Origin: Promethearchaeia archaeon
Lineage (GTDB): Archaea; Asgardarchaeota; Lokiarchaeia; Sigyniarchaeales; SOKP01
Reading direction: 5' to 3'
Assembly: GCA_029856155.1 (NCBI GenBank)
Contig: JAHQWL010000072.1
Span: 32,001 to 96,000 of the forward strand
Length of the DNA: 64,000 nt
Below are positions 2,990 through 55,994 of this stretch, piece after piece. The stretch's first letter is position 1; the number at the start of each line of letters is the position of its first letter. The notes under the pieces are model-generated. The model was not told where the DNA came from. It searched no databases and worked only from the letters and a program-made list of their open reading frames with translations. A program made the translations under genes and the position numbers.

Positions 2990-3168
2990 TTTTTTTTAAA
3001 TAAGAATCATTTAATTATCTAGTACAAATTTGAAAATTTAAGATAAGTATAAATAATTAATTTAAAACCTAAAATTGATATTATTAAAAGACTAATATCA
3101 ACCATTATTAATAATGCGAATTACACAATATTATCTTATTTATAATTGAATAATTGTACTGAAAGATT

Positions 3169-3972
3169 ATGACCTTCAAATTAAAATTAGAAAATAGTCG
3201 GATATTGAAAGGAATTGTTGAAACTCTTTCAAGCATTATCGATGAAACAGAGTTTCGAGTCACTCCTAAAGAGTTTACAATTTCAGCGATGGATCCTAGT
3301 AGAATTTGTTTATTAAAATTATCTGTTAAAAAGGATAATTTTGATGAATATCAATGTGCCAAAGAATCAAAAGTTGGACTGAATTTAGATGATTTAGATA
3401 AAATTTTAAAAAGATGCGCGGCGACTGATTCTGTTGAAATTGATTTTAATGAAGCTGATCAGAAAATAAAAATCAAAATGCAACGTGAGGGCATGACTCG
3501 CACTAGAACTTTTAGCTTAGCTTTATTAGATATTGATATTGAAGAAATTCCTATGGATAATTTATTAAAGATAGAATATCCTTCAAAATGGGTTATTGAG
3601 CCAGATTTTTTAGTTGAAGCAATAAAGGATGCTGAAATTTATTCCGAAATCCTTAACATGATTTCAACAGAAGGACAAGGATTAATTTTTAGTTCTACGG
3701 GGCAAATTGGTGAAATGGAATATAATCTTAGTGAAGATGATTTAATAGAAACAGATCTTAATGGAACTAGTAGTGGTGCATATTCCTTAACATTTTTAAA
3801 AGCAATTTTAAAAATAGCTTCAATCACAGAAAAGCTAGAAATATCTCTAAAAACTGATCATCCCTTAAAAATGATATTCAATCTTCTTGAAGGTGGCGAA
3901 TTAAGTTACTTCTTAGCTCCTAGAGTCGAAGAAGCTGAATTTGAAGAAGATGAAGATATGGATGAATTTTAA
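3169..3972 (+). CDS. pcn: DNA sliding clamp PCNA
   Basis: AMDPSRICL, YSLTFL, YFLAPRVE motifs; acidic tail. Confidence 0.98.
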   Translation: MTFKLKLENSRILKGIVETLSSIIDETEFRVTPKEFTISAMDPSRICLLKLSVKKDNFDEYQCAKESKVGLNLDDLDKILKRCAATDSVEIDFNEADQKIKIKMQREGMTRTRTFSLALLDIDIEEIPMDNLLKIEYPSKWVIEPDFLVEAIKDAEIYSEILNMISTEGQGLIFSSTGQIGEMEYNLSEDDLIETDLNGTSSGAYSLTFLKAILKIASITEKLEISLKTDHPLKMIFNLLEGGELSYFLAPRVEEAEFEEDEDMDEF

Positions 3973-47553: not shown

Positions 47554-48612
47554 TTACTTTTCTACTGTTGATGGAAAATTCTCATTTTCCTCTTTCCATA
47601 ATCTCATTTCCTTCTTATGCCCAAAAAATACAAGAACAAAAAAAATTGAAAAATAAATTGTTAAAATTAATAATGTAAAAAAATAATATTTGTATGTAAA
47701 ACTCATAAAATGTAAAGCCAACCCTATTATAAAACCAGTAAATAACCTCGATCCTGTAGTACTTTTTCTTAATAAAAGCCTTTGGGTCCCCCAATCTATA
47801 AGCCCTGGTATTGGCAGGATTATACACATAAGTAATGCTATTTCTGCACTAAATTCCACTTGGAAGATTTTAGCAGTTAAATATGTCGTGAACATTGCAG
47901 ACAATCCCCCAAGTATTACACCCGAACATCTTGTGCAAAAATATATTTTAGTTCTTCCAAATTGGAGATAAAAAGTATGATCACTCGCTGAAAGAGGATG
48001 ATGTGTTAAGATCATATAATACAAATGTTTTTCCTCTTTAGCAAGAATTCTATCATAGATGAGGAGAAATACTGGTATTACAAATATTACTGAAATAATT
48101 GCTTGAAGAAAGAATTTAAAACCATAATTTATCACGATAACTTCGATTGTGTTTTGATTAGGATAAATGAAAAATTGAAAAACAATAATGAGACTAAAGA
48201 CTATAAAGGATGCAATGATAAGAGCAATAAACGTATAATATACTTTAATCCCATCATGATATTTTAAAGGGTGATATTTATAGATTCCATATAAAAACCC
48301 TAATGCGCCTATAATAATACACCATTCAATATAAAAAGTATGATAAAAAGCTAATTGATATAGCAATTCTCCTAGAAAACCTGATATTAATCCTTGAATT
48401 GGACCTGCTAATATTGAAAAAAATGTAAAAATCAGAAGAGTTATGCCAAATTGTATTGAAAATTCCTGATTCGTTATATAAATTGTAGAAATGGAGCCAA
48501 AGGGTTCAGAAATATACACATAAGAAATTATAATAAAAGCTATAATTAAAAGATTTAAAAAAATGACCCGTACAATATTATTTTGCTCCTTTTTCTGAGC
48601 AGGTTCAGTCAA
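47554..48612 (-). CDS. Membrane fusion protein: ECF S-component-like + DUF2085-like domain
   Basis: LAGPIQGLISGFLGELL (S-component-like); HHP...HT, FCTRCSG, IDWGTQ, R..TG (DUF2085-like); probable TTG start at 48612 (ORF open to 48687). Confidence 0.65.
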   Translation of the reverse strand: MTEPAQKKEQNNIVRVIFLNLLIIAFIIISYVYISEPFGSISTIYITNQEFSIQFGITLLIFTFFSILAGPIQGLISGFLGELLYQLAFYHTFYIEWCIIIGALGFLYGIYKYHPLKYHDGIKVYYTFIALIIASFIVFSLIIVFQFFIYPNQNTIEVIVINYGFKFFLQAIISVIFVIPVFLLIYDRILAKEEKHLYYMILTHHPLSASDHTFYLQFGRTKIYFCTRCSGVILGGLSAMFTTYLTAKIFQVEFSAEIALLMCIILPIPGLIDWGTQRLLLRKSTTGSRLFTGFIIGLALHFMSFTYKYYFFTLLILTIYFSIFFVLVFFGHKKEMRLWKEENENFPSTVEK

Positions 48613-48667
48613 GGTAAACCCATACTTTTTATTTATGTGTCTTTCAAATATTAAATGTGAAGAGATC

Positions 48668-49327
48668 TTAATTAAAAATCTCGTCAAGGTCTTCGATTAA
48701 CTTCTTCTTTGTCATTTCAAAACCCAATCGCAGTACTTTCAGGATAATATTCCTTCCTAGGAACACCTTTAAAATAGTATCATCCTTTTCCACAACTGCA
48801 ATTCCTTCATCATTATAATCAAGCTGACGTTTTAAAGCTTCATATGCTTTTTCTTTTGTTTTAAAAGTTGCTCTAGATAACTCACTGTATCCTTTAACAT
48901 CATCAGTTACTTTTAGAAAAAGGATACTTTCTTCTATTTGCGTTATAAAGCATTTCTTAGTTACTTCCTTTAATTTTCTATAGTTTTGGTGAGTATTTTT
49001 ACACTGACGATCTGTCTGATCGTTTTCTAAATATATAGGAAAATTCTTATTGACAATATGATCAAATTTCTCTTTTGAGATCTCTCCATTTTGAACTAAT
49101 TCTTTCGCGGAATCAAGTGTAACTCGAATTTGTTCTAATGTACCAATTGTTGCTTCCTTGTCGCTCCAGTATTTATAAAATGCTTTAATTATTGGTTTAA
49201 CTACAAAATTTAAAGTGCCAGCATCTAATTCAGTATCAATGAGATTTTTTCCATAATTAAGGCTTGTCTCCATTTGCTCAATCATCCTTTTCTCTAAGAT
49301 CTTATAGTTTCTTTCTATGTAATCCAT
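48668..49327 (-). CDS. Hypothetical helical protein, tandem paralog 2
   Basis: Colinear homolog of 49438..50100 (MDYIERNY..., DQT.RQC). Confidence 0.8.
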   Translation of the reverse strand: MDYIERNYKILEKRMIEQMETSLNYGKNLIDTELDAGTLNFVVKPIIKAFYKYWSDKEATIGTLEQIRVTLDSAKELVQNGEISKEKFDHIVNKNFPIYLENDQTDRQCKNTHQNYRKLKEVTKKCFITQIEESILFLKVTDDVKGYSELSRATFKTKEKAYEALKRQLDYNDEGIAVVEKDDTILKVFLGRNIILKVLRLGFEMTKKKLIEDLDEIFN

Positions 49328-49437
49328 TATTAAGCCCAAATCTCATTAATATTATAATAATTTTAAATTTCTAAAATTTAATCAAAAACAACCTACAAAC
49401 TTTATTTGTAAAATCTATCATTAAATTAATATTTTAA

Positions 49438-50100
49438 TTATTTATTGTTATATGTCTCATTGAGTGCTTTAATAAACTCTTCCCTAGTCTGATCAAAACC
49501 TTTCCTTAATGCTTTTACAATTATCTTTCTCCCAACGGGGAGTTTAAGAATGGATGGATCGTTTTCAACTATTTTAACACCTTGATCAGTAAAATCTAAT
49601 TGTTTCATTAAATTTTTTTTAGCTATTTCTTTTGAAGGAAATGCTATTCGACATAAATCTCCATAATTATCTACTTCATCCGTTATCCCTAATAGTTTTA
49701 CTACTTCTTTTAAATAATTGATAAATGTTTCTTTACTAACATGCTTTAATTTTTCATAATTTTTATGTTGTCTCGAGCATTGGCGTGTTGTTTGATCGGC
49801 CTCCAGGTATTTAGGAAAAGATTCATTAAGAATTTTATTGAAAACATCATTAGAATTACCCTTTAATAATAATTTCTTACCTGCATCTAATGTGAGGTTA
49901 ATCTGTTTAAGTGTGCCATCTCGAGCATCATGTTGAGCCCAATAATCGTAGAAGGATTTTACGATTGGTTTGATAATGAAGTTTAAAAGACCTGTATCTA
50001 ATTCTGTTTCCACGAGATTTCTTCCTCTAATAAGGGAATTTTCCATTTGTTCCATCATTCGTTGTTTTATAAGTTGATAATTCCTTTCAATGTAATCCAA
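49438..50100 (-). CDS. Hypothetical helical protein, tandem paralog 1
   Basis: Colinear homolog of the downstream gene; TTG start preceded by GGAG. Confidence 0.8.
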   Translation of the reverse strand: MDYIERNYQLIKQRMMEQMENSLIRGRNLVETELDTGLLNFIIKPIVKSFYDYWAQHDARDGTLKQINLTLDAGKKLLLKGNSNDVFNKILNESFPKYLEADQTTRQCSRQHKNYEKLKHVSKETFINYLKEVVKLLGITDEVDNYGDLCRIAFPSKEIAKKNLMKQLDFTDQGVKIVENDPSILKLPVGRKIIVKALRKGFDQTREEFIKALNETYNNK

Positions 50101-50295: not shown

Positions 50296-53200
50296 ATGAC
50301 AACCTATTATTTTAAAATCTTAATTCTGGGTGAAACTGACACAATCCATTTTTATGTCTCAAGAGCTTTTGGTGAGCCCGGGGAAGACCAAGAAACACAT
50401 TTCAAATGGTATAAAGAAACTAAAGTTTTTGATGATATATGCGATTTAGAAATTGATGCAATTACAAGTATCTCTGCAGATTTAGATGAAATAATTCCCA
50501 TGGTAGACGGGATTATATATTTTTTGAATCCTGTAAACGAGGAAGAATCTGAGCTATTTGAAATGATACTTCCTGATATCTTTTCAGTAAAACGCGATAT
50601 CCCTACAGTTGTTATGTTTTATGATCAGAACGGAATCCTCCCTGTTTCTGTGAATGATTTATTACAACATATATGGGTGAATTTTCCAAGTTTGGAGGCA
50701 TTTGCGAACCTCGCTCCCAATAATTTTCATCAAGCACTCCAATCTTTATGTTTGGCAATGATTAACGGCGATACACCATTAAATATTGAAAATGCATGGA
50801 TGAGATTTCCAATATTTATACAAATGGCCAATATCTATTTTAATAACCAAAATTATTATTATGCTGCTCAAGCTATTAGAAAAGCAGCACTCATAGCAGA
50901 AATATACAATAAAGAAGAGTTTTTTATAATTAGTGAACAAGCTGCTTATCTATATTCTAAAATGAATCTATATTTAGAAGCGAGTAAAATTTTAGAAAAA
51001 ATAGATAAAAGAAAAGCGATAAATTTTAAAAAATTATATGCGGATGCGATAATACGAGAAGGTAATTTATTCTTTAATAAGAATGAGTTTGAACAAGCTG
51101 CAAGAAACTACGAGAGAGCAGCTCAATGGTCGAGCATCGAATTATTAGATAAAACATTTATTTATGAGGCTTTTAGATTAGCAATTAATTCTTGGATTTC
51201 AGCTTGTAGAATTGATGATGCATTAAGGATCTTAGATAGTTTACCACATCAAGGTGTTATTCTTTTATTAAAAGAAATCTCAGATAAAATTGGTGCTGCT
51301 GCTGATTATTTAGTAAATATTAATAATTTTGAATCAGCAAGAGAACAGCTTTACCTTGCAATCAATAAATATCAACGTGAAGCTCTTTCCGATGAATTAA
51401 AAGAATTAACTAATAAACTTACAGAAGTATTAATTACATTTTTTAAACAACAGGTAAATGAGGAAAAAAAGCACGCTGCTAAAAATACATATGATGAGCT
51501 TGAAAATATGTGGAGCTCCTATAAAGTGAAAAAAGCAAATTTAGATTCAACTTTAGAAGAATTAATTAACCAGTTTTTTGAGGCTAATAATTTTGGAACA
51601 GCAACTATTTTGATTGACAAATTAAATTCAAGAAAATTAAAACAACAGTTAGCAAAAAATAGAGATGAATTTGAAGATAAATATGAAGCATTAAAAAAGA
51701 AAGAAGTAGAAGATTATATTAATAGGGGTGTGGCAATAATAAGAAGTTTTGTCGAAACTGAAATAGATCTCATAGCAGAAATGAATACAAAGAAAATAAC
51801 AGAAGCAAATGAATACGTTCAGCAAAACAATTATATTAGAGCAGCAAACATCTTAAAAAAACAGGCAGAATACCTTAAAAAAATTGGTAAAGAAGATATA
51901 AAGGATCAAATCCTCACAAAATCATTAGATGTATTATTAGAAGGTATGGAATTTGAAAGTTTTTTTGTTTTTTTTAATGAAATCTCAGCGGATATAAAAA
52001 AAAAATATTTAACTAGAATCTTTCCGAGATATTTTCAGAAATTACAAGATCTTCGAAATGTAGAAGATTTTGCAAGTAATGAAAAAATATTTGAAAAATC
52101 GATTAGAATTTATCGAAATCAAATGCTTTATGATCAATCTAAGGAAATTAGTTTAATTTTTATTAAAGTAATTAAAAGTGAAGCCTTAAGAATATTAGAA
52201 AGCGAGGGAGATCTTTCAGCAATTAATAAAGCAGAAATGTCTGTTAAAAAAGTTTTAAATATAGCATCAGCATATTTAGAGAAAGAAGAGAGCATAAATA
52301 TCACATTTAACAAGATCTACAAGAAAGTATCTGAAATTTACATTGAACTGAATGACTTACATTTAGCTCAAGTTTATAATGATAAAATTGAAAATAAAGA
52401 ATACAAAATTGAAATACATAAGAAAATCGAGTCATTGGAAGCTGAACAAAGTGCTATTAGAGCTAAAAAAGCTATTGAAACTCGAAAAGGAGAGGTATTA
52501 AAAGAAAAAGGTTCTATTATTGAAAAAAGAGCACAAGAAGCGAAGTTAGATAAAGAAAATCAAATGAGGGAAAGAAGAGGGTTAAAAAGAGGTTACTTTA
52601 ATAATGGGTTAACTCATTTGAGAAATCAACAATATGATAAAGCTTTTGAAGTATATAAAAGCACAATTAATCGATTAAGTTTAATAAAGAAATATAATCT
52701 AGCAGGAGTATCCTTAGTTGTTGCAATTCTAATATTTATGAAACAAAATAAATTTGGAGATATCAATGAGTTACTGAATGAGACAAAAACAATATTATCT
52801 GGCTTAGGAAAATCTTTTTCTGAGACATTTCCAGTAACTCTCATAGAATATATAAATGATTTAAAAAATCTTCAAGAAGAGCAAAAATTCAAAGAATCCT
52901 TAAAGTTCTTAGAAAGTATTCCATTATTTGATGAGGAGTTGGAGTTATTAGAAGATTATTTAGGTGCAGATTATCAAAAAGAAGAAAAAGTAGAAAAAGT
53001 TAAAGATGAAGAACCTTCAAAAGAACCAGTAAAAGAAATATTATCACGAGCAGAAGTTGGGGAATTATCTAAAAAACAAGTGGAAATGGATCAGAGGTTT
53101 GGAAAAATCCACTCTAAAAAAGGAGATGCTAGAAGAGATAAAGAAAGAATCTTTATGAAAAGAAAACCAATGAGAAAAAGATACTATTCACCTATATTAG

Positions 53201-53556
53201 ATATGCTAGAATCACAAAAATATGAAAAAGCAGCAATTAAATACTTAGAATTAGCAAATATACTTTTAAAAAGAAAAGACCTCGAAACCAGTTCTTTAAT
53301 GGTCAATTTGCATTGTTTAGCTCTATTAAAGGTAGGAGATTCAATAAGTGAAATTAAAAATAATATTAATGATTATTTAAATAGCTTAGGAGTTAATAAA
53401 AAAGTAGTTGAAGAAACATTCTATATAATGCTTATCTTGTTTCTAATTGACAGTAAACTATATAATTTTAAGAATTATCTCCATAAAATTAAAGAAATGT
53501 TGGAAATCCTTCCCTTATTTGAAGAAGAGAAATTTTTGATAGATATTGAAGAATAA
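50296..53556 (+). CDS. Large protein: degenerate Ras/Rab-fold domain + TPR/SNAP-like alpha-solenoid
   Basis: N-terminal YYFKILILG...DGIIYFLN...IPTVVM without G motifs; A..Y..AA helical repeats; duplicated C-terminal unit. Confidence 0.7.
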   Translation: MTTYYFKILILGETDTIHFYVSRAFGEPGEDQETHFKWYKETKVFDDICDLEIDAITSISADLDEIIPMVDGIIYFLNPVNEEESELFEMILPDIFSVKRDIPTVVMFYDQNGILPVSVNDLLQHIWVNFPSLEAFANLAPNNFHQALQSLCLAMINGDTPLNIENAWMRFPIFIQMANIYFNNQNYYYAAQAIRKAALIAEIYNKEEFFIISEQAAYLYSKMNLYLEASKILEKIDKRKAINFKKLYADAIIREGNLFFNKNEFEQAARNYERAAQWSSIELLDKTFIYEAFRLAINSWISACRIDDALRILDSLPHQGVILLLKEISDKIGAAADYLVNINNFESAREQLYLAINKYQREALSDELKELTNKLTEVLITFFKQQVNEEKKHAAKNTYDELENMWSSYKVKKANLDSTLEELINQFFEANNFGTATILIDKLNSRKLKQQLAKNRDEFEDKYEALKKKEVEDYINRGVAIIRSFVETEIDLIAEMNTKKITEANEYVQQNNYIRAANILKKQAEYLKKIGKEDIKDQILTKSLDVLLEGMEFESFFVFFNEISADIKKKYLTRIFPRYFQKLQDLRNVEDFASNEKIFEKSIRIYRNQMLYDQSKEISLIFIKVIKSEALRILESEGDLSAINKAEMSVKKVLNIASAYLEKEESINITFNKIYKKVSEIYIELNDLHLAQVYNDKIENKEYKIEIHKKIESLEAEQSAIRAKKAIETRKGEVLKEKGSIIEKRAQEAKLDKENQMRERRGLKRGYFNNGLTHLRNQQYDKAFEVYKSTINRLSLIKKYNLAGVSLVVAILIFMKQNKFGDINELLNETKTILSGLGKSFSETFPVTLIEYINDLKNLQEEQKFKESLKFLESIPLFDEELELLEDYLGADYQKEEKVEKVKDEEPSKEPVKEILSRAEVGELSKKQVEMDQRFGKIHSKKGDARRDKERIFMKRKPMRKRYYSPILDMLESQKYEKAAIKYLELANILLKRKDLETSSLMVNLHCLALLKVGDSISEIKNNINDYLNSLGVNKKVVEETFYIMLILFLIDSKLYNFKNYLHKIKEMLEILPLFEEEKFLIDIEE

Positions 53557-53635: not shown

Positions 53636-54559
53636 TTAATCAACCATATTTACATACTTCTGCAAATCCTTTACTCGCATACGAAGGGTCACTTCAGTAA
53701 CTCGGGCTAGCTTACTTATTTCCTTCTGCGTTCTGTTTTCATTACATATTTTTGAACCAATATAAATAGCAGCAGCTGCAATTCCCTTAGGGTCCTTTCC
53801 AGCTGAATTAAATCCACTTTCTTTTGCTTTCTCGATTATTTTGACAGCAATATTCCGACATTTCATAGAAAGTTTTAACTCTTCATTGAATTTATCTACA
53901 TAGCGATCAGCTGAGAAATGCTGAACTTTAAGGTTTAATTTAGGTAATACTTCCATTAAAATTAGTCTATAACTTTTTATAACTTTCTTTTTAGGTATTT
54001 GTGCAACTTTAGTAATTTCTTCGGCGGTTCTAGGTATTCCATGAACTCTTAAAGCCGCAAAAATCGAAGCTGATAATAACGTATCAATGCTACGACCCAT
54101 AGTTAGCTTTTTTTTTACTGTTTGAGTATAAATTCGTAAAGCATCCTCCGCAACCGCATCAGGAATTCCTAACCTTTTTTGTAAACGTTGTAAATTTGGT
54201 AAAGCAATCCATAAATTTCTTTCATAGCTAGTAGTTAGTGATCTATGAATTTTAGCTAGTCTATTGAATTTTGATTTATACTTTGGGCTTAATAACGTGC
54301 CTCTGGCATCTCTGGATCCTCTGATAATGGTTCTAGGACCAATTGGGCTGTATACCCTTTCGTTACTCTTTCTTTTTTGTATTTCTTCTTGAGTAAAGGC
54401 TCTACGAGGACTATCATCAAGAATCCGGGAATAAACAAATCCACAATTTAAACAAACATAAAAACCATCCTCCTCGCTGATTTTTGGATTATCACAGCAG
54501 GAAGGCCCCTCCTCTGCATTATCCTCAAAAAAATCATTATCTTCAAAATGAGCTGGCAT
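53636..54559 (-). CDS. tfb: Transcription initiation factor B (TFB)
   Basis: Zn ribbon, ERNL, GRS, PRT..EI, GKDPKGIAAAAIY, TQKEIS..ARVTEVTLR. Confidence 0.96.
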   Translation of the reverse strand: MPAHFEDNDFFEDNAEEGPSCCDNPKISEEDGFYVCLNCGFVYSRILDDSPRRAFTQEEIQKRKSNERVYSPIGPRTIIRGSRDARGTLLSPKYKSKFNRLAKIHRSLTTSYERNLWIALPNLQRLQKRLGIPDAVAEDALRIYTQTVKKKLTMGRSIDTLLSASIFAALRVHGIPRTAEEITKVAQIPKKKVIKSYRLILMEVLPKLNLKVQHFSADRYVDKFNEELKLSMKCRNIAVKIIEKAKESGFNSAGKDPKGIAAAAIYIGSKICNENRTQKEISKLARVTEVTLRMRVKDLQKYVNMVD

Positions 54560-54755: not shown

Positions 54756-55994
54756 ATGTCTTCAGAAGCTTCTAGTTTTATAAAAGTCTTTTCGAAATTC
54801 TTGGATCCAGAATCCGTGAAAATTGATAAATTACATAAGGTTGATGATATTATAAAATTACCAATTCTATCATACAAATTTATAGATAAAGAAGAATCGA
54901 CCATAATGAAGCAGCTACTAGAAATTTCTACAATTGGAGATGCTTCTAAGTTAAATAAAGATGATCCATTTGAAAGCTTAACTGAAATTGAAGAAACAGA
55001 TGATTCAATTGAATTAACAGCAAGTCTACAACAAAAACTTGAGGAATTAAAGGTCAAATACCCCACTCTTGAAGAAAAATTAAAGAAAACTATCACCATC
55101 AGCTCACTTATTGTGAGTGTTAAAGAAGAAAAAGAAGGAATTGACGAAACAGCACAAAAAGTACTTGTTGCGGGACTTGATAATGCTGGAAAAACAGCAA
55201 CACTATCAAAATTTGGCGGACGATTAGGAATAAGTGATATGATCTCAACACATCCCACGAAAGGAGTTGTTCGAATGAAATTTGGAAGCAGTCATTTAAA
55301 CTTATTTATCTGGGATTTAGGTGGGCAAGAAGAATATAGGGAGAGGTATTTAAAGAATCCAGAGCAATATTTTATGATGCTTGATTTGCTAATTTATGTA
55401 ATAGATGTACAAGATCCAGATAGATTTGATGATGCTCTTGAATATTTTGAGAAAATTATAAACTCAATAATTTTATTGGAAGAAAATCCGTATATATTAC
55501 TTTTTATCCATAAATATGACCCAGACTTGAAGAATAACCCTAAAATTCTCTTAAATATAGAACTTCTAAAGGATAATATTAATGAACTATTTAAAACCAA
55601 GAATTATGATCTTCATTTGGAGATTTATTTAACATCAATATACTCATTGATCTCACGCGAACCACAATTCGCAAAATACATAAAGAATCTTATGAGTGCT
55701 AGTTATTCTTTGAGTGATCCTACAGTTAGGAAAGTTGAAGGTCTTGGAAAAACATTAGAAGAAACATTAAATGCGGTTATTCGACTATCAGAAAGTATTT
55801 CCACACAACTCAATGAACTTGACAATCGTCTTAGAGCTATAGAATCAGGAGCATTTCAAATTGCTCAAAGTGGGTTCCCTATTGAAATTGCCAACCCAAA
55901 TCAACCTTCAGCAAGGCCTCAAGAAAGTGCAAGGCTACAAGTATTAAATGAACTAAAGGATTTATTTGGTAAGAGACGTAGATTGGATCTTTAA
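54756..55994 (+). CDS. Extended Arf/Rag-like small GTPase
   Basis: GLDNAGKT, PTKG, WDLGGQ, HKYD, TSI; N-terminal extension and C-terminal coiled coil. Confidence 0.88.
   Translation: MSSEASSFIKVFSKFLDPESVKIDKLHKVDDIIKLPILSYKFIDKEESTIMKQLLEISTIGDASKLNKDDPFESLTEIEETDDSIELTASLQQKLEELKVKYPTLEEKLKKTITISSLIVSVKEEKEGIDETAQKVLVAGLDNAGKTATLSKFGGRLGISDMISTHPTKGVVRMKFGSSHLNLFIWDLGGQEEYRERYLKNPEQYFMMLDLLIYVIDVQDPDRFDDALEYFEKIINSIILLEENPYILLFIHKYDPDLKNNPKILLNIELLKDNINELFKTKNYDLHLEIYLTSIYSLISREPQFAKYIKNLMSASYSLSDPTVRKVEGLGKTLEETLNAVIRLSESISTQLNELDNRLRAIESGAFQIAQSGFPIEIANPNQPSARPQESARLQVLNELKDLFGKRRRLDL

What the first reader, a model, noticed from the sequence alone, without database searches (positions are those of the whole stretch)
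50296..53556. Rab-fold pseudo-GTPase fused to a ~900-aa SNAP/TPR-like solenoid
Seen: residues 1-155 follow Rab secondary-structure order (YYFKILILG; WYKETKV; CDLEID; MVDGIIYFLN; SELFE...DIPTVVM) but lack GxxxxGK[ST], DxxG and NKxD. Then come helical repeats (YYYAAQAIRKAA, EQAAYLY, FEQAARNYERAA), a charged coiled coil, and a ~130-aa unit present twice (R...KR.Y...L......Y.KA...ETF...LI...LE.[IL]PLF.EE). Established: pseudo-GTPase scaffolds and alpha-solenoids are building blocks of eukaryotic trafficking machinery. Inference: an undescribed Asgard scaffold, adaptor or tether, possibly partnering the extended GTPase 1.2 kb away.
Basis: partly seen in the sequence, partly recalled or inferred. 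Interest (0 to 1): 0.75.

Follow-up and report, generated by a model that had tools for sequence, protein, structure and literature searches.

The report
Lokiarchaeal dead-GTPase head on helical scaffold
This gene encodes a 1086-residue protein, kept as a single copy in nearly every searched genome of one order of Asgard (Loki-type) archaea, whose Ras/Rab-shaped head has lost its GTP-binding loops and is joined to TPR-like helical repeats and two copies of a new helical module; it is most likely a binding scaffold, and its partners and function are untested.

Summary
ORF 50296-53556 (+) is real and 1086 aa long.

The rest of the protein is helical:
- two TPR-like blocks separated by a 64-residue helix;
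- a roughly 170-aa module present twice (profile-profile E 5e-20), and three times in the 1245-aa form of other genomes.

- The family is confined to one order of Lokiarchaeia (39 of 40 high-quality genomes). It was not found in about 225 other Asgard genomes.
- Linkage to the neighbouring Arf/Rag-like GTPase holds only within the family. A divergent 220-aa + DUF2085 membrane-protein operon stays linked in the sister family too.

The closest architectural parallel is the TRAPP large subunits (GTPase-like fold plus alpha-solenoid), but membership is not supported. This scan has already found the family in several other genomes.

The parts
50296..53556 (+). Whole gene, 1086 aa, single copy in the genome
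50296..50775 (+). Residues 1-160: Ras/Rab-like G-domain fold without P-loop, G3 or G4 motifs (pseudo-GTPase head)
50776..50844 (+). Residues 161-183: junction and first solenoid helix (PLNIENAWMRFPIFIQMANIYF). This is the most conserved stretch of the protein, at 95% mean identity.
   Evidence: Invariant columns; per-region conservation. Low hydrophobic moment (0.21), so a buried helix rather than an amphipathic one.
50845..51630 (+). Residues 184-445: TPR-like helical-hairpin block 1. It contains the only Pfam match above cut-off (TPR_2, residues 249-277).
51631..51822 (+). Residues 446-509: a single long charged helix
51823..52395 (+). Residues 510-700: TPR-like helical block 2
52396..52971 (+). 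Residues 701-892: C-terminal unit 1. It is a long helix plus a bundle of about 7 helices with a hydrophobic central helix at 797-816, and it ends in LPLF[DE]EE.
52972..53043 (+). Residues 893-916: disordered acidic linker, the least conserved part (37% identity)
   Evidence: pLDDT below 50
53044..53553 (+). Residues 917-1086: C-terminal unit 2, a duplicate of unit 1
   Evidence: hhalign E 5e-20; hmmsearch domains
47554..50100 (-). Divergently transcribed neighbours: tandem 220-aa and 223-aa paralogues of an unnamed helical family, then a DUF2085 membrane protein. Their linkage to the gene is kept in two families of the order.
54756..55994 (+). Synteny holds only within the own family. tfb (53636-54559, minus strand) lies between it and the gene.

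Best explanation
The gene encodes a cytosolic, non-enzymatic scaffold specific to one order of Lokiarchaeia.

Its head derives from a Ras/Rab-type small GTPase. It has lost the phosphate-binding loop through a five-residue deletion, and it has also lost the G3 glycine and the G4 guanine-specificity motif. It therefore most likely cannot bind or hydrolyse GTP, and works as a fixed protein-binding surface, like a class-i pseudo-GTPase.

An almost invariant hydrophobic junction helix locks the head onto about 530 residues of TPR-like repeats. Two copies of a family-specific helical module of about 170 aa follow, and other genomes have three. An acidic flexible linker separates the two copies.

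Shown (with the fold predicted, not solved):
- the fold and the motif loss;
- the modular anatomy;
- single-copy, near-universal conservation within the order.

Inferred:
- that it assembles partner proteins;
- that the likeliest partners are the products of the divergently transcribed 220-aa paralogues and the DUF2085 membrane protein, which would place the scaffold at the membrane.
For: Fold:
- The N-domain model has pLDDT 79.6 and pTM 0.81.
- The same result comes from the independent full-length model and from Foldseek.

Sequence-level link to GTPases:
- hhalign against 36 Ras-family domains of this genome gives E 8.6e-4. Strands 1, 3, 4 and 5 are in register, with a 5-residue gap exactly at GxxxxGK.
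- The N-domain profile weakly hits ordinary Ras/Arf proteins of about 200 aa in related genomes.

Motif loss is ancestral: 0 of 70 homologues have a P-loop. The 20-38%-identical sister-family proteins also lack it.

Selection:
- Intact ORFs are found in 138 of 161 genomes of the class, nearly all in one order, and in 39 of 40 high-quality genomes.
- The gene is single copy.
- Identity is 73% in the head and 95% at the junction.

No enzymatic domain was detected.

Partner inference:
- The 220-aa gene lies immediately upstream and divergent in 66 of 68 loci.
- It is still 1.4-3.2 kb away in sister-family genomes, where the rest of the synteny is gone.
- Its phyletic profile nearly coincides with that of the scaffold (f1 67/68, f2 6/7).
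Against: - Every structural statement rests on AlphaFold2 models, not on a solved structure.
- Nucleotide binding was not measured, and some proteins that lack canonical motifs still bind nucleotides.
- Conserved residues at the C-terminal ends of the strands (G12, D54, N78-P79, Y109-D110, N138) sit where the nucleotide pocket would be. They could form a site for a different ligand.
- Gene-neighbourhood evidence is weak here. A roughly 13-kb block is syntenic throughout the own family, so adjacency may partly reflect relatedness.
- In the one divergent f32 ortholog, the 220-aa gene is on another contig.
- No interaction was modelled or measured.
Confidence: 0.6

Rival explanations
1. It is an archaeal counterpart of the TRAPP large subunits or of SNAP: a membrane-traffic-type adaptor. 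The dead-GTPase head plus solenoid would dock regulators of small GTPases. Alternatively, SNAP-like modules would bind helical-bundle cargo, homologous or analogous to the eukaryotic machinery.
For: [quoted passage not shown] The domain order is the same.
- The genome carries 82 Ras-family matches that would need regulators.
Against: - Pfam Trs85, Bet3/TRAPP and Sedlin_N models give no match in this genome. The Trs85 control rang nowhere, so that result is uninformative.
- No TRAPP subunit appears in the displayed structural hits.
- The helix between head and solenoid is not amphipathic (moment 0.21), unlike Trs85's membrane anchor.
- The SNAP HMM hits 22 other TPR loci of the genome but not this gene, and it is not among the 25 most frequently matched Pfam families for the 16 C-units (44 families matched).
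- The family is restricted to one order.
Confidence: 0.12
2. The head is still a working nucleotide- or ligand-binding switch with a non-canonical pocket, so the protein is a regulated signalling protein rather than a passive scaffold.
For: - The G3 aspartate equivalent (D54) and the glycine at the end of strand 1 (G12) are retained. Residues lining the former pocket are nearly invariant, as are the segments equivalent to switch I and switch II.
Against: - The P-loop is shortened by five residues in all 70 sequences, with no Lys or Ser/Thr. There is no NKxD or SAK equivalent.
- The Pfam GTPase models do not score it even at E <= 1.
- The Ras model did not list this locus in the genome search at the default E <= 0.001.
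Confidence: 0.12
3. It is a degenerate STAND/NLR-like NTPase-TPR sensor, of the defence or signalling type, that has lost its ATPase.
For: NTPase-plus-TPR is a common prokaryotic sensor architecture (established knowledge).
Against: - The head has the TRAFAC small-GTPase topology with the antiparallel b2-b3 hairpin, and it matches only GTPases structurally.
- There is no effector domain.
- The gene is a single-copy, near-universal, slowly evolving core gene of the order. Defence genes are not like that.
Confidence: 0.03

Closest known systems
Class-i pseudo-GTPase domains of eukaryotic scaffolds (CENP-M; pG1/pG2 of p190RhoGAP; fungal dynein light intermediate chain)
   Same: A Ras-like fold is kept while the nucleotide-binding motifs are lost, and the domain serves as a protein-interaction or assembly module (PMC10211241). 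Here the fold is predicted and the motifs are absent.
   Different: There is no detectable sequence relation. This one is archaeal, restricted to a single order, and fused to about 900 aa of helical modules. Lack of nucleotide binding is inferred, not measured.
TRAPP large subunits: Trs85/TRAPPC8, Trs120/TRAPPC9, Trs130/TRAPPC10, TRAPPC11
   Same: [quoted passage not shown]
   Different: - No sequence match to the Trs85 family model, and no Bet3 or sedlin core found in this genome.
- No amphipathic anchor helix between head and solenoid.
- No Ig-like C-terminal domains; instead there are 2-3 copies of a family-specific helical unit.
- No TRAPP chain among the displayed structural matches.
Rab/Ras small GTPases, including the many Asgard Rab-like GTPases
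   Different: G1, G3 and G4 are all absent. The domain is not recognised by the Pfam Ras, Arf or Roc models, and it always sits at the N-terminus of a 1070-1290-aa protein.
SNAP (alpha/gamma soluble NSF attachment proteins) and generic long TPR scaffolds (SKI3, CTR9, IFT-A TPR subunit)
   Different: The TM-scores are very low (below 0.2) and the SNAP superposition has rmsd 34 Å. The SNAP HMM does not match. The resemblance is at the level of repeat class.

Membership tests
Active Ras-superfamily small GTPase | Ras-like six-stranded alpha/beta G-domain fold | tested here: met
Active Ras-superfamily small GTPase | G1 P-loop GxxxxGK[ST] | tested here: not met
   0 of 70 homologues have it. There is a 5-residue deletion at this position.
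Active Ras-superfamily small GTPase | G3 DxxG and G4 [NT]KxD | tested here: not met
   After strand 3 the sequence reads DAIT. The G4 position reads FYDQ. NKxD occurs in 2 of 70.
Class-i pseudo-GTPase | G-domain fold retained with nucleotide-binding motifs lost | tested here: met
Class-i pseudo-GTPase | No nucleotide binding by the purified domain | not testable with these tools
   This needs a biochemical assay.
TPR repeat proteins | Match to a TPR family model above the curated cut-off, and a helical-hairpin solenoid | tested here: met
   TPR_2 scores 28.4 bits against a cut-off of 27, at residues 249-277. The model shows helix pairs of about 17 residues. Foldseek hits are to TPR scaffolds.
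SNAP (PF14938) | Match to the SNAP family model | tested here: not met
   No match at this locus at E <= 1, while 22 other loci of the genome match. SNAP is not among the 25 most frequently matched Pfam families for the 16 C-units; 44 families matched and only 25 are listed.
SNAP (PF14938) | SNAP fold: a twisted sheet of helical hairpins plus a C-terminal helical bundle | tested here: inconclusive
TRAPP large subunits (Trs85/TRAPPC8 type) | N-terminal nucleotide-free GTPase-like fold followed by an alpha-solenoid | tested here: met
   This is an architectural resemblance only (against PMC8204860).
TRAPP large subunits (Trs85/TRAPPC8 type) | Sequence membership (PF12739), and presence of the TRAPP core (Bet3 PF04051, sedlin PF04628) to dock on | tested here: inconclusive
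   None of the three models matches in this genome. The Trs85 model rang in no control genome, and distant archaeal relatives could escape Pfam.
TRAPP large subunits (Trs85/TRAPPC8 type) | [quoted passage not shown] | tested here: not met
   The junction helix 166-183 has hydrophobic moment 0.21 and mean hydrophobicity 0.32. It has invariant specific residues and is modelled as a packed solenoid helix.
STAND NTPase-TPR sensors | NACHT/NB-ARC-type P-loop NTPase core | tested here: not met
   The topology and all top structural hits are small-GTPase (TRAFAC) type, and there is no P-loop.

The most novel reading that the evidence does not exclude
The protein is the hub of a Lokiarchaeales-specific membrane-associated machine. 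Its dead-GTPase head would pair with one of the genome's many live small GTPases or with their regulators. Its SNAP/TRAPP-like helical modules would recruit the 220-aa paralogues and the DUF2085 membrane protein. That would make it a prokaryotic analogue, or a distant relative, of eukaryotic GTPase-regulating tether and adaptor complexes.
Probability: 0.12. Interest if true: 0.8.

Novelty: new variant of a known kind. Interest (0 to 1): 0.5.

Why it matters
To my knowledge, pseudo-GTPase scaffolds are described only in eukaryotes. My literature searches for pseudo-GTPases in archaea or Asgard returned nothing relevant.

A dead Ras-type domain fixed onto a large repeat scaffold is conserved as a core single-copy gene across the order. 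Earlier scan notes say, untested here, that this order includes the cultured Lokiarchaea. The finding shows that Asgard small-GTPase expansions also produced non-catalytic derivatives, as they did in eukaryotes. It also gives a concrete, testable candidate for cell-biological work such as pull-downs, localisation and co-folding.

Its restriction to one order, and the lack of specific similarity to eukaryotic machinery, limit what it says about eukaryogenesis.

Tried and rejected
- **Sequence searches for the whole protein.** Pfam and NCBIfam gave only one TPR repeat. PDB sequence searches with the whole-family profile and with the C-unit profile gave only noise, such as ribosomal protein bS20 and BrxL.
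- **N-domain profile against 1.84 billion representatives.** There were 47 hits. Nearly all are the same architecture or fragments of it, apart from one or two marginal short matches. No live GTPase relative was found, and those named are labelled Lokiarchaeota or Promethearchaeota.
- **ESM Atlas.** It returned only the family's own two clusters. A 646-aa GTPase cluster at 0.76 was a lead only. The corresponding 643-aa protein of this genome shows no similarity to the solenoid.
- **A 1142-aa Ras-domain protein on contig 84.** I checked it as a possible live paralogue. It is an Arf-like GTPase fused to a PAS/sensor region and is unrelated.
- **Internal repeats beyond the C-units.** The TPR blocks are not detectably related to each other or to the units.
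- **Stand-alone C-units.** There are none elsewhere in the genome. Shorter database hits are almost all contig-end fragments of the same family.
- **The 220-aa neighbour.** It has no Pfam, NCBIfam, PDB or Atlas match.
- **Literature.** I found nothing on Lokiarch_03720 or on archaeal pseudo-GTPases. The 2026 solenoid preprint does not treat this family.

Full report
**The gene.** The window is low-GC (about 29%) archaeal DNA, and a TFIIB gene lies next door. The ORF at 50296-53556 (+) exists exactly as stated and encodes 1086 aa. It is the only copy in the 4.1-Mb, 97%-complete assembly.

**Family and distribution.**
- A word-indexed search found 166 homologues. The 120 listed are 48-88% identical, mostly over the full length, and carry only Lokiarchaeota/Promethearchaeota-type labels or none. 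They come in two length classes, about 1080 aa and about 1245 aa.
- A profile of 70 of them matched 68/68 genomes of the own GTDB family and 7/7 of a sister family. Across 301 Asgard genomes in 30 families, nothing else matched except one generic TPR hit.
- An N-domain-only profile over the class gave f1 121/134, f2 13/14, f31 1/1 and f32 1/4. Among high-quality genomes it matched 39 of 40.
- The f32 hit is a 1106-aa divergent ortholog (hhalign E 7.5e-21 over the whole length).
- The remaining weak hits are ordinary Ras/Arf GTPases of 197-297 aa.
- HMMER read all 1.84 billion representatives with the N-domain profile. It found only 47 clusters, nearly all of this architecture or fragments of it.

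The family is therefore a near-universal core gene of one order. It is not an Asgard-wide protein.

**The head.**
- Full-length AF2 (pLDDT 81.8) and a separate 180-aa run (pLDDT 79.6, pTM 0.81) both give b1-a1-b2-b3-a2-b4-a3-b5-a4-b6-a5 over residues 3-157.
- Foldseek against the PDB returns at least 500 hits at E <= 0.001. They are led by KRAS, HRAS, Rab5, Rab4 and Rap1 (E about 1e-8, TM 0.65-0.75).
- The full-length model gives the same answer.
- At sequence level, hhalign against 36 Ras-family domains of this same genome gives E 8.6e-4. The strands are in register and there is a five-residue gap exactly where GxxxxGK[ST] should be.
- None of 70 homologues has a P-loop. The G3 position reads D-A-I-T, so the Asp is kept and the Gly is lost. 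The G4 position reads F-Y-D-Q.
- The sister-family proteins, at 20-38% identity in this domain, also lack the motifs, so the loss is ancestral.
- 'Rab-fold' is fair, but Rab, Ras, Rap and Gem are within 1-2 Z units of each other.

**The rest of the protein.**
- Residues 161-183 are the most conserved part, at 95% identity with ten invariant residues. They form a hydrophobic, non-amphipathic helix that starts the solenoid.
- TPR-like hairpin blocks at 184-445 and 510-700 flank a 64-residue charged helix.
- Residues 701-892 and 917-1086 are duplicates (BLASTP E 2e-12; hhalign E 5e-20). Each is a helix of about 60 residues, then a weak TPR-like hairpin, then a bundle with a very hydrophobic central helix, ending in LPLF[DE]EE.
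- A disordered acidic linker (893-916) separates the two units.
- The 1245-aa form has three units.
- The unit occurs nowhere else in this genome. Database hits shorter than the full protein are almost all fragments of the family.

**What the solenoid resembles.**
- Foldseek with the whole model lists long eukaryotic TPR scaffolds (SKI3, CTR9, IFT-A TPR subunit, Tom70), but at TM below 0.2.
- The SNAP Pfam model matches 22 TPR loci in this genome but not this gene at E <= 1.
'SNAP-like' therefore remains a lead.
- Earlier agents of this scan report SNAP-type units in orthologues. I did not reproduce that.

**The TRAPP parallel.** Earlier notes pointed me to the TRAPP large subunits, and I read the papers. 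[quoted passage not shown] Trs120, Trs130 and TRAPPC11 are built alike (PMC8204860, PMC10152722). The domain order is the same here. However, the junction helix is not amphipathic. The Trs85, Bet3 and Sedlin_N models find nothing in the genome (the Trs85 control is uninformative). No TRAPP chain appears among the displayed structural hits. The parallel holds for architecture but not for family membership.

**Genomic context.**
- In 68 loci from public MAGs the order is constant. A minus-strand run lies upstream and divergent: 537-aa protein, Zn-ribbon, esterase, DUF2085, 223-aa, 220-aa. Then comes this gene, then tfb convergent, then the 412-aa Arf/Rag-like GTPase.
- Counts across those loci: 220-aa 66/68, DUF2085 62/68, tfb 60/68, GTPase 52/68. 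The misses are mostly at truncated contigs.
- In the sister family only the 220-aa and DUF2085 genes stay near the gene, at 1.4-3.2 kb and still divergent. tfb and the GTPase are gone.
- The 220-aa family has almost the same phyletic range as the scaffold.
- This is modest guilt-by-association for a membrane-linked partner set. It gives no support for the neighbouring GTPase beyond family-level synteny.

**Verdict.** The most likely reading is a nucleotide-independent assembly scaffold headed by a pseudo-GTPase (confidence 0.6). It is a new variant of a known kind of protein. I found no paper describing it. This scan has already met the family in several other genomes, with concordant follow-ups.

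Noticed in passing
window 47554-50100 (-): Tandem 220-aa and 223-aa paralogues of an unnamed helical family are followed by a membrane protein. That protein's C-terminal half is DUF2085, and its N-terminal half weakly resembles an ECF-transporter S component (E 4e-4). The 220-aa family is confined to the same class. It stays divergently linked to the scaffold gene in two families.
   Followed up: partly
L016 2709-6821 (same region as L100): In another genus of the family, the Arf/Rag-like 412-aa GTPase downstream of tfb is present as three tandem copies. They are 43-57% identical to the window's copy.
   Followed up: no
G000 contig C84, ORF containing 2999-3472 (-), outside the window: A 1142-aa open frame begins with an Arf-like GTPase domain (LSLAGKT P-loop). 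By eye, this is followed by PAS-like repeats and a histidine-kinase-like C-terminus. That would be a small GTPase fused to a sensor kinase.
   Followed up: no
whole genome G000: The Pfam Ras model gives 82 matches in this 4.1-Mb genome, several of them in tandem clusters (contigs C28, C21, C88). None is at the scaffold's head.
   Followed up: partly
window 52684-52743 and 53416-53460 (residues 797-816 and 1041-1055): Each C-terminal unit has one strongly hydrophobic helix (mean Eisenberg hydrophobicity 0.54) inside an otherwise charged bundle. This layout is also seen in helical domains that can insert into membranes. It was not tested.
   Followed up: no
Yet they carry 73-90%-identical N-domain orthologues in the same synteny as the window. 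Those labels look unreliable.
   Followed up: no
G132:C1:157785-161036, G125:C82:797-1771, G198:C44:13246-14268: A few orthologues carry a single in-frame stop (TAA or TGA). This could be a sequencing error, a pseudogene or a split gene.
   Followed up: no
window 53636-54559 (-): The adjacent tfb gene is unusually conserved across the family, at 74-98% identity in loci where the scaffold is only 40-88% identical.
   Followed up: no
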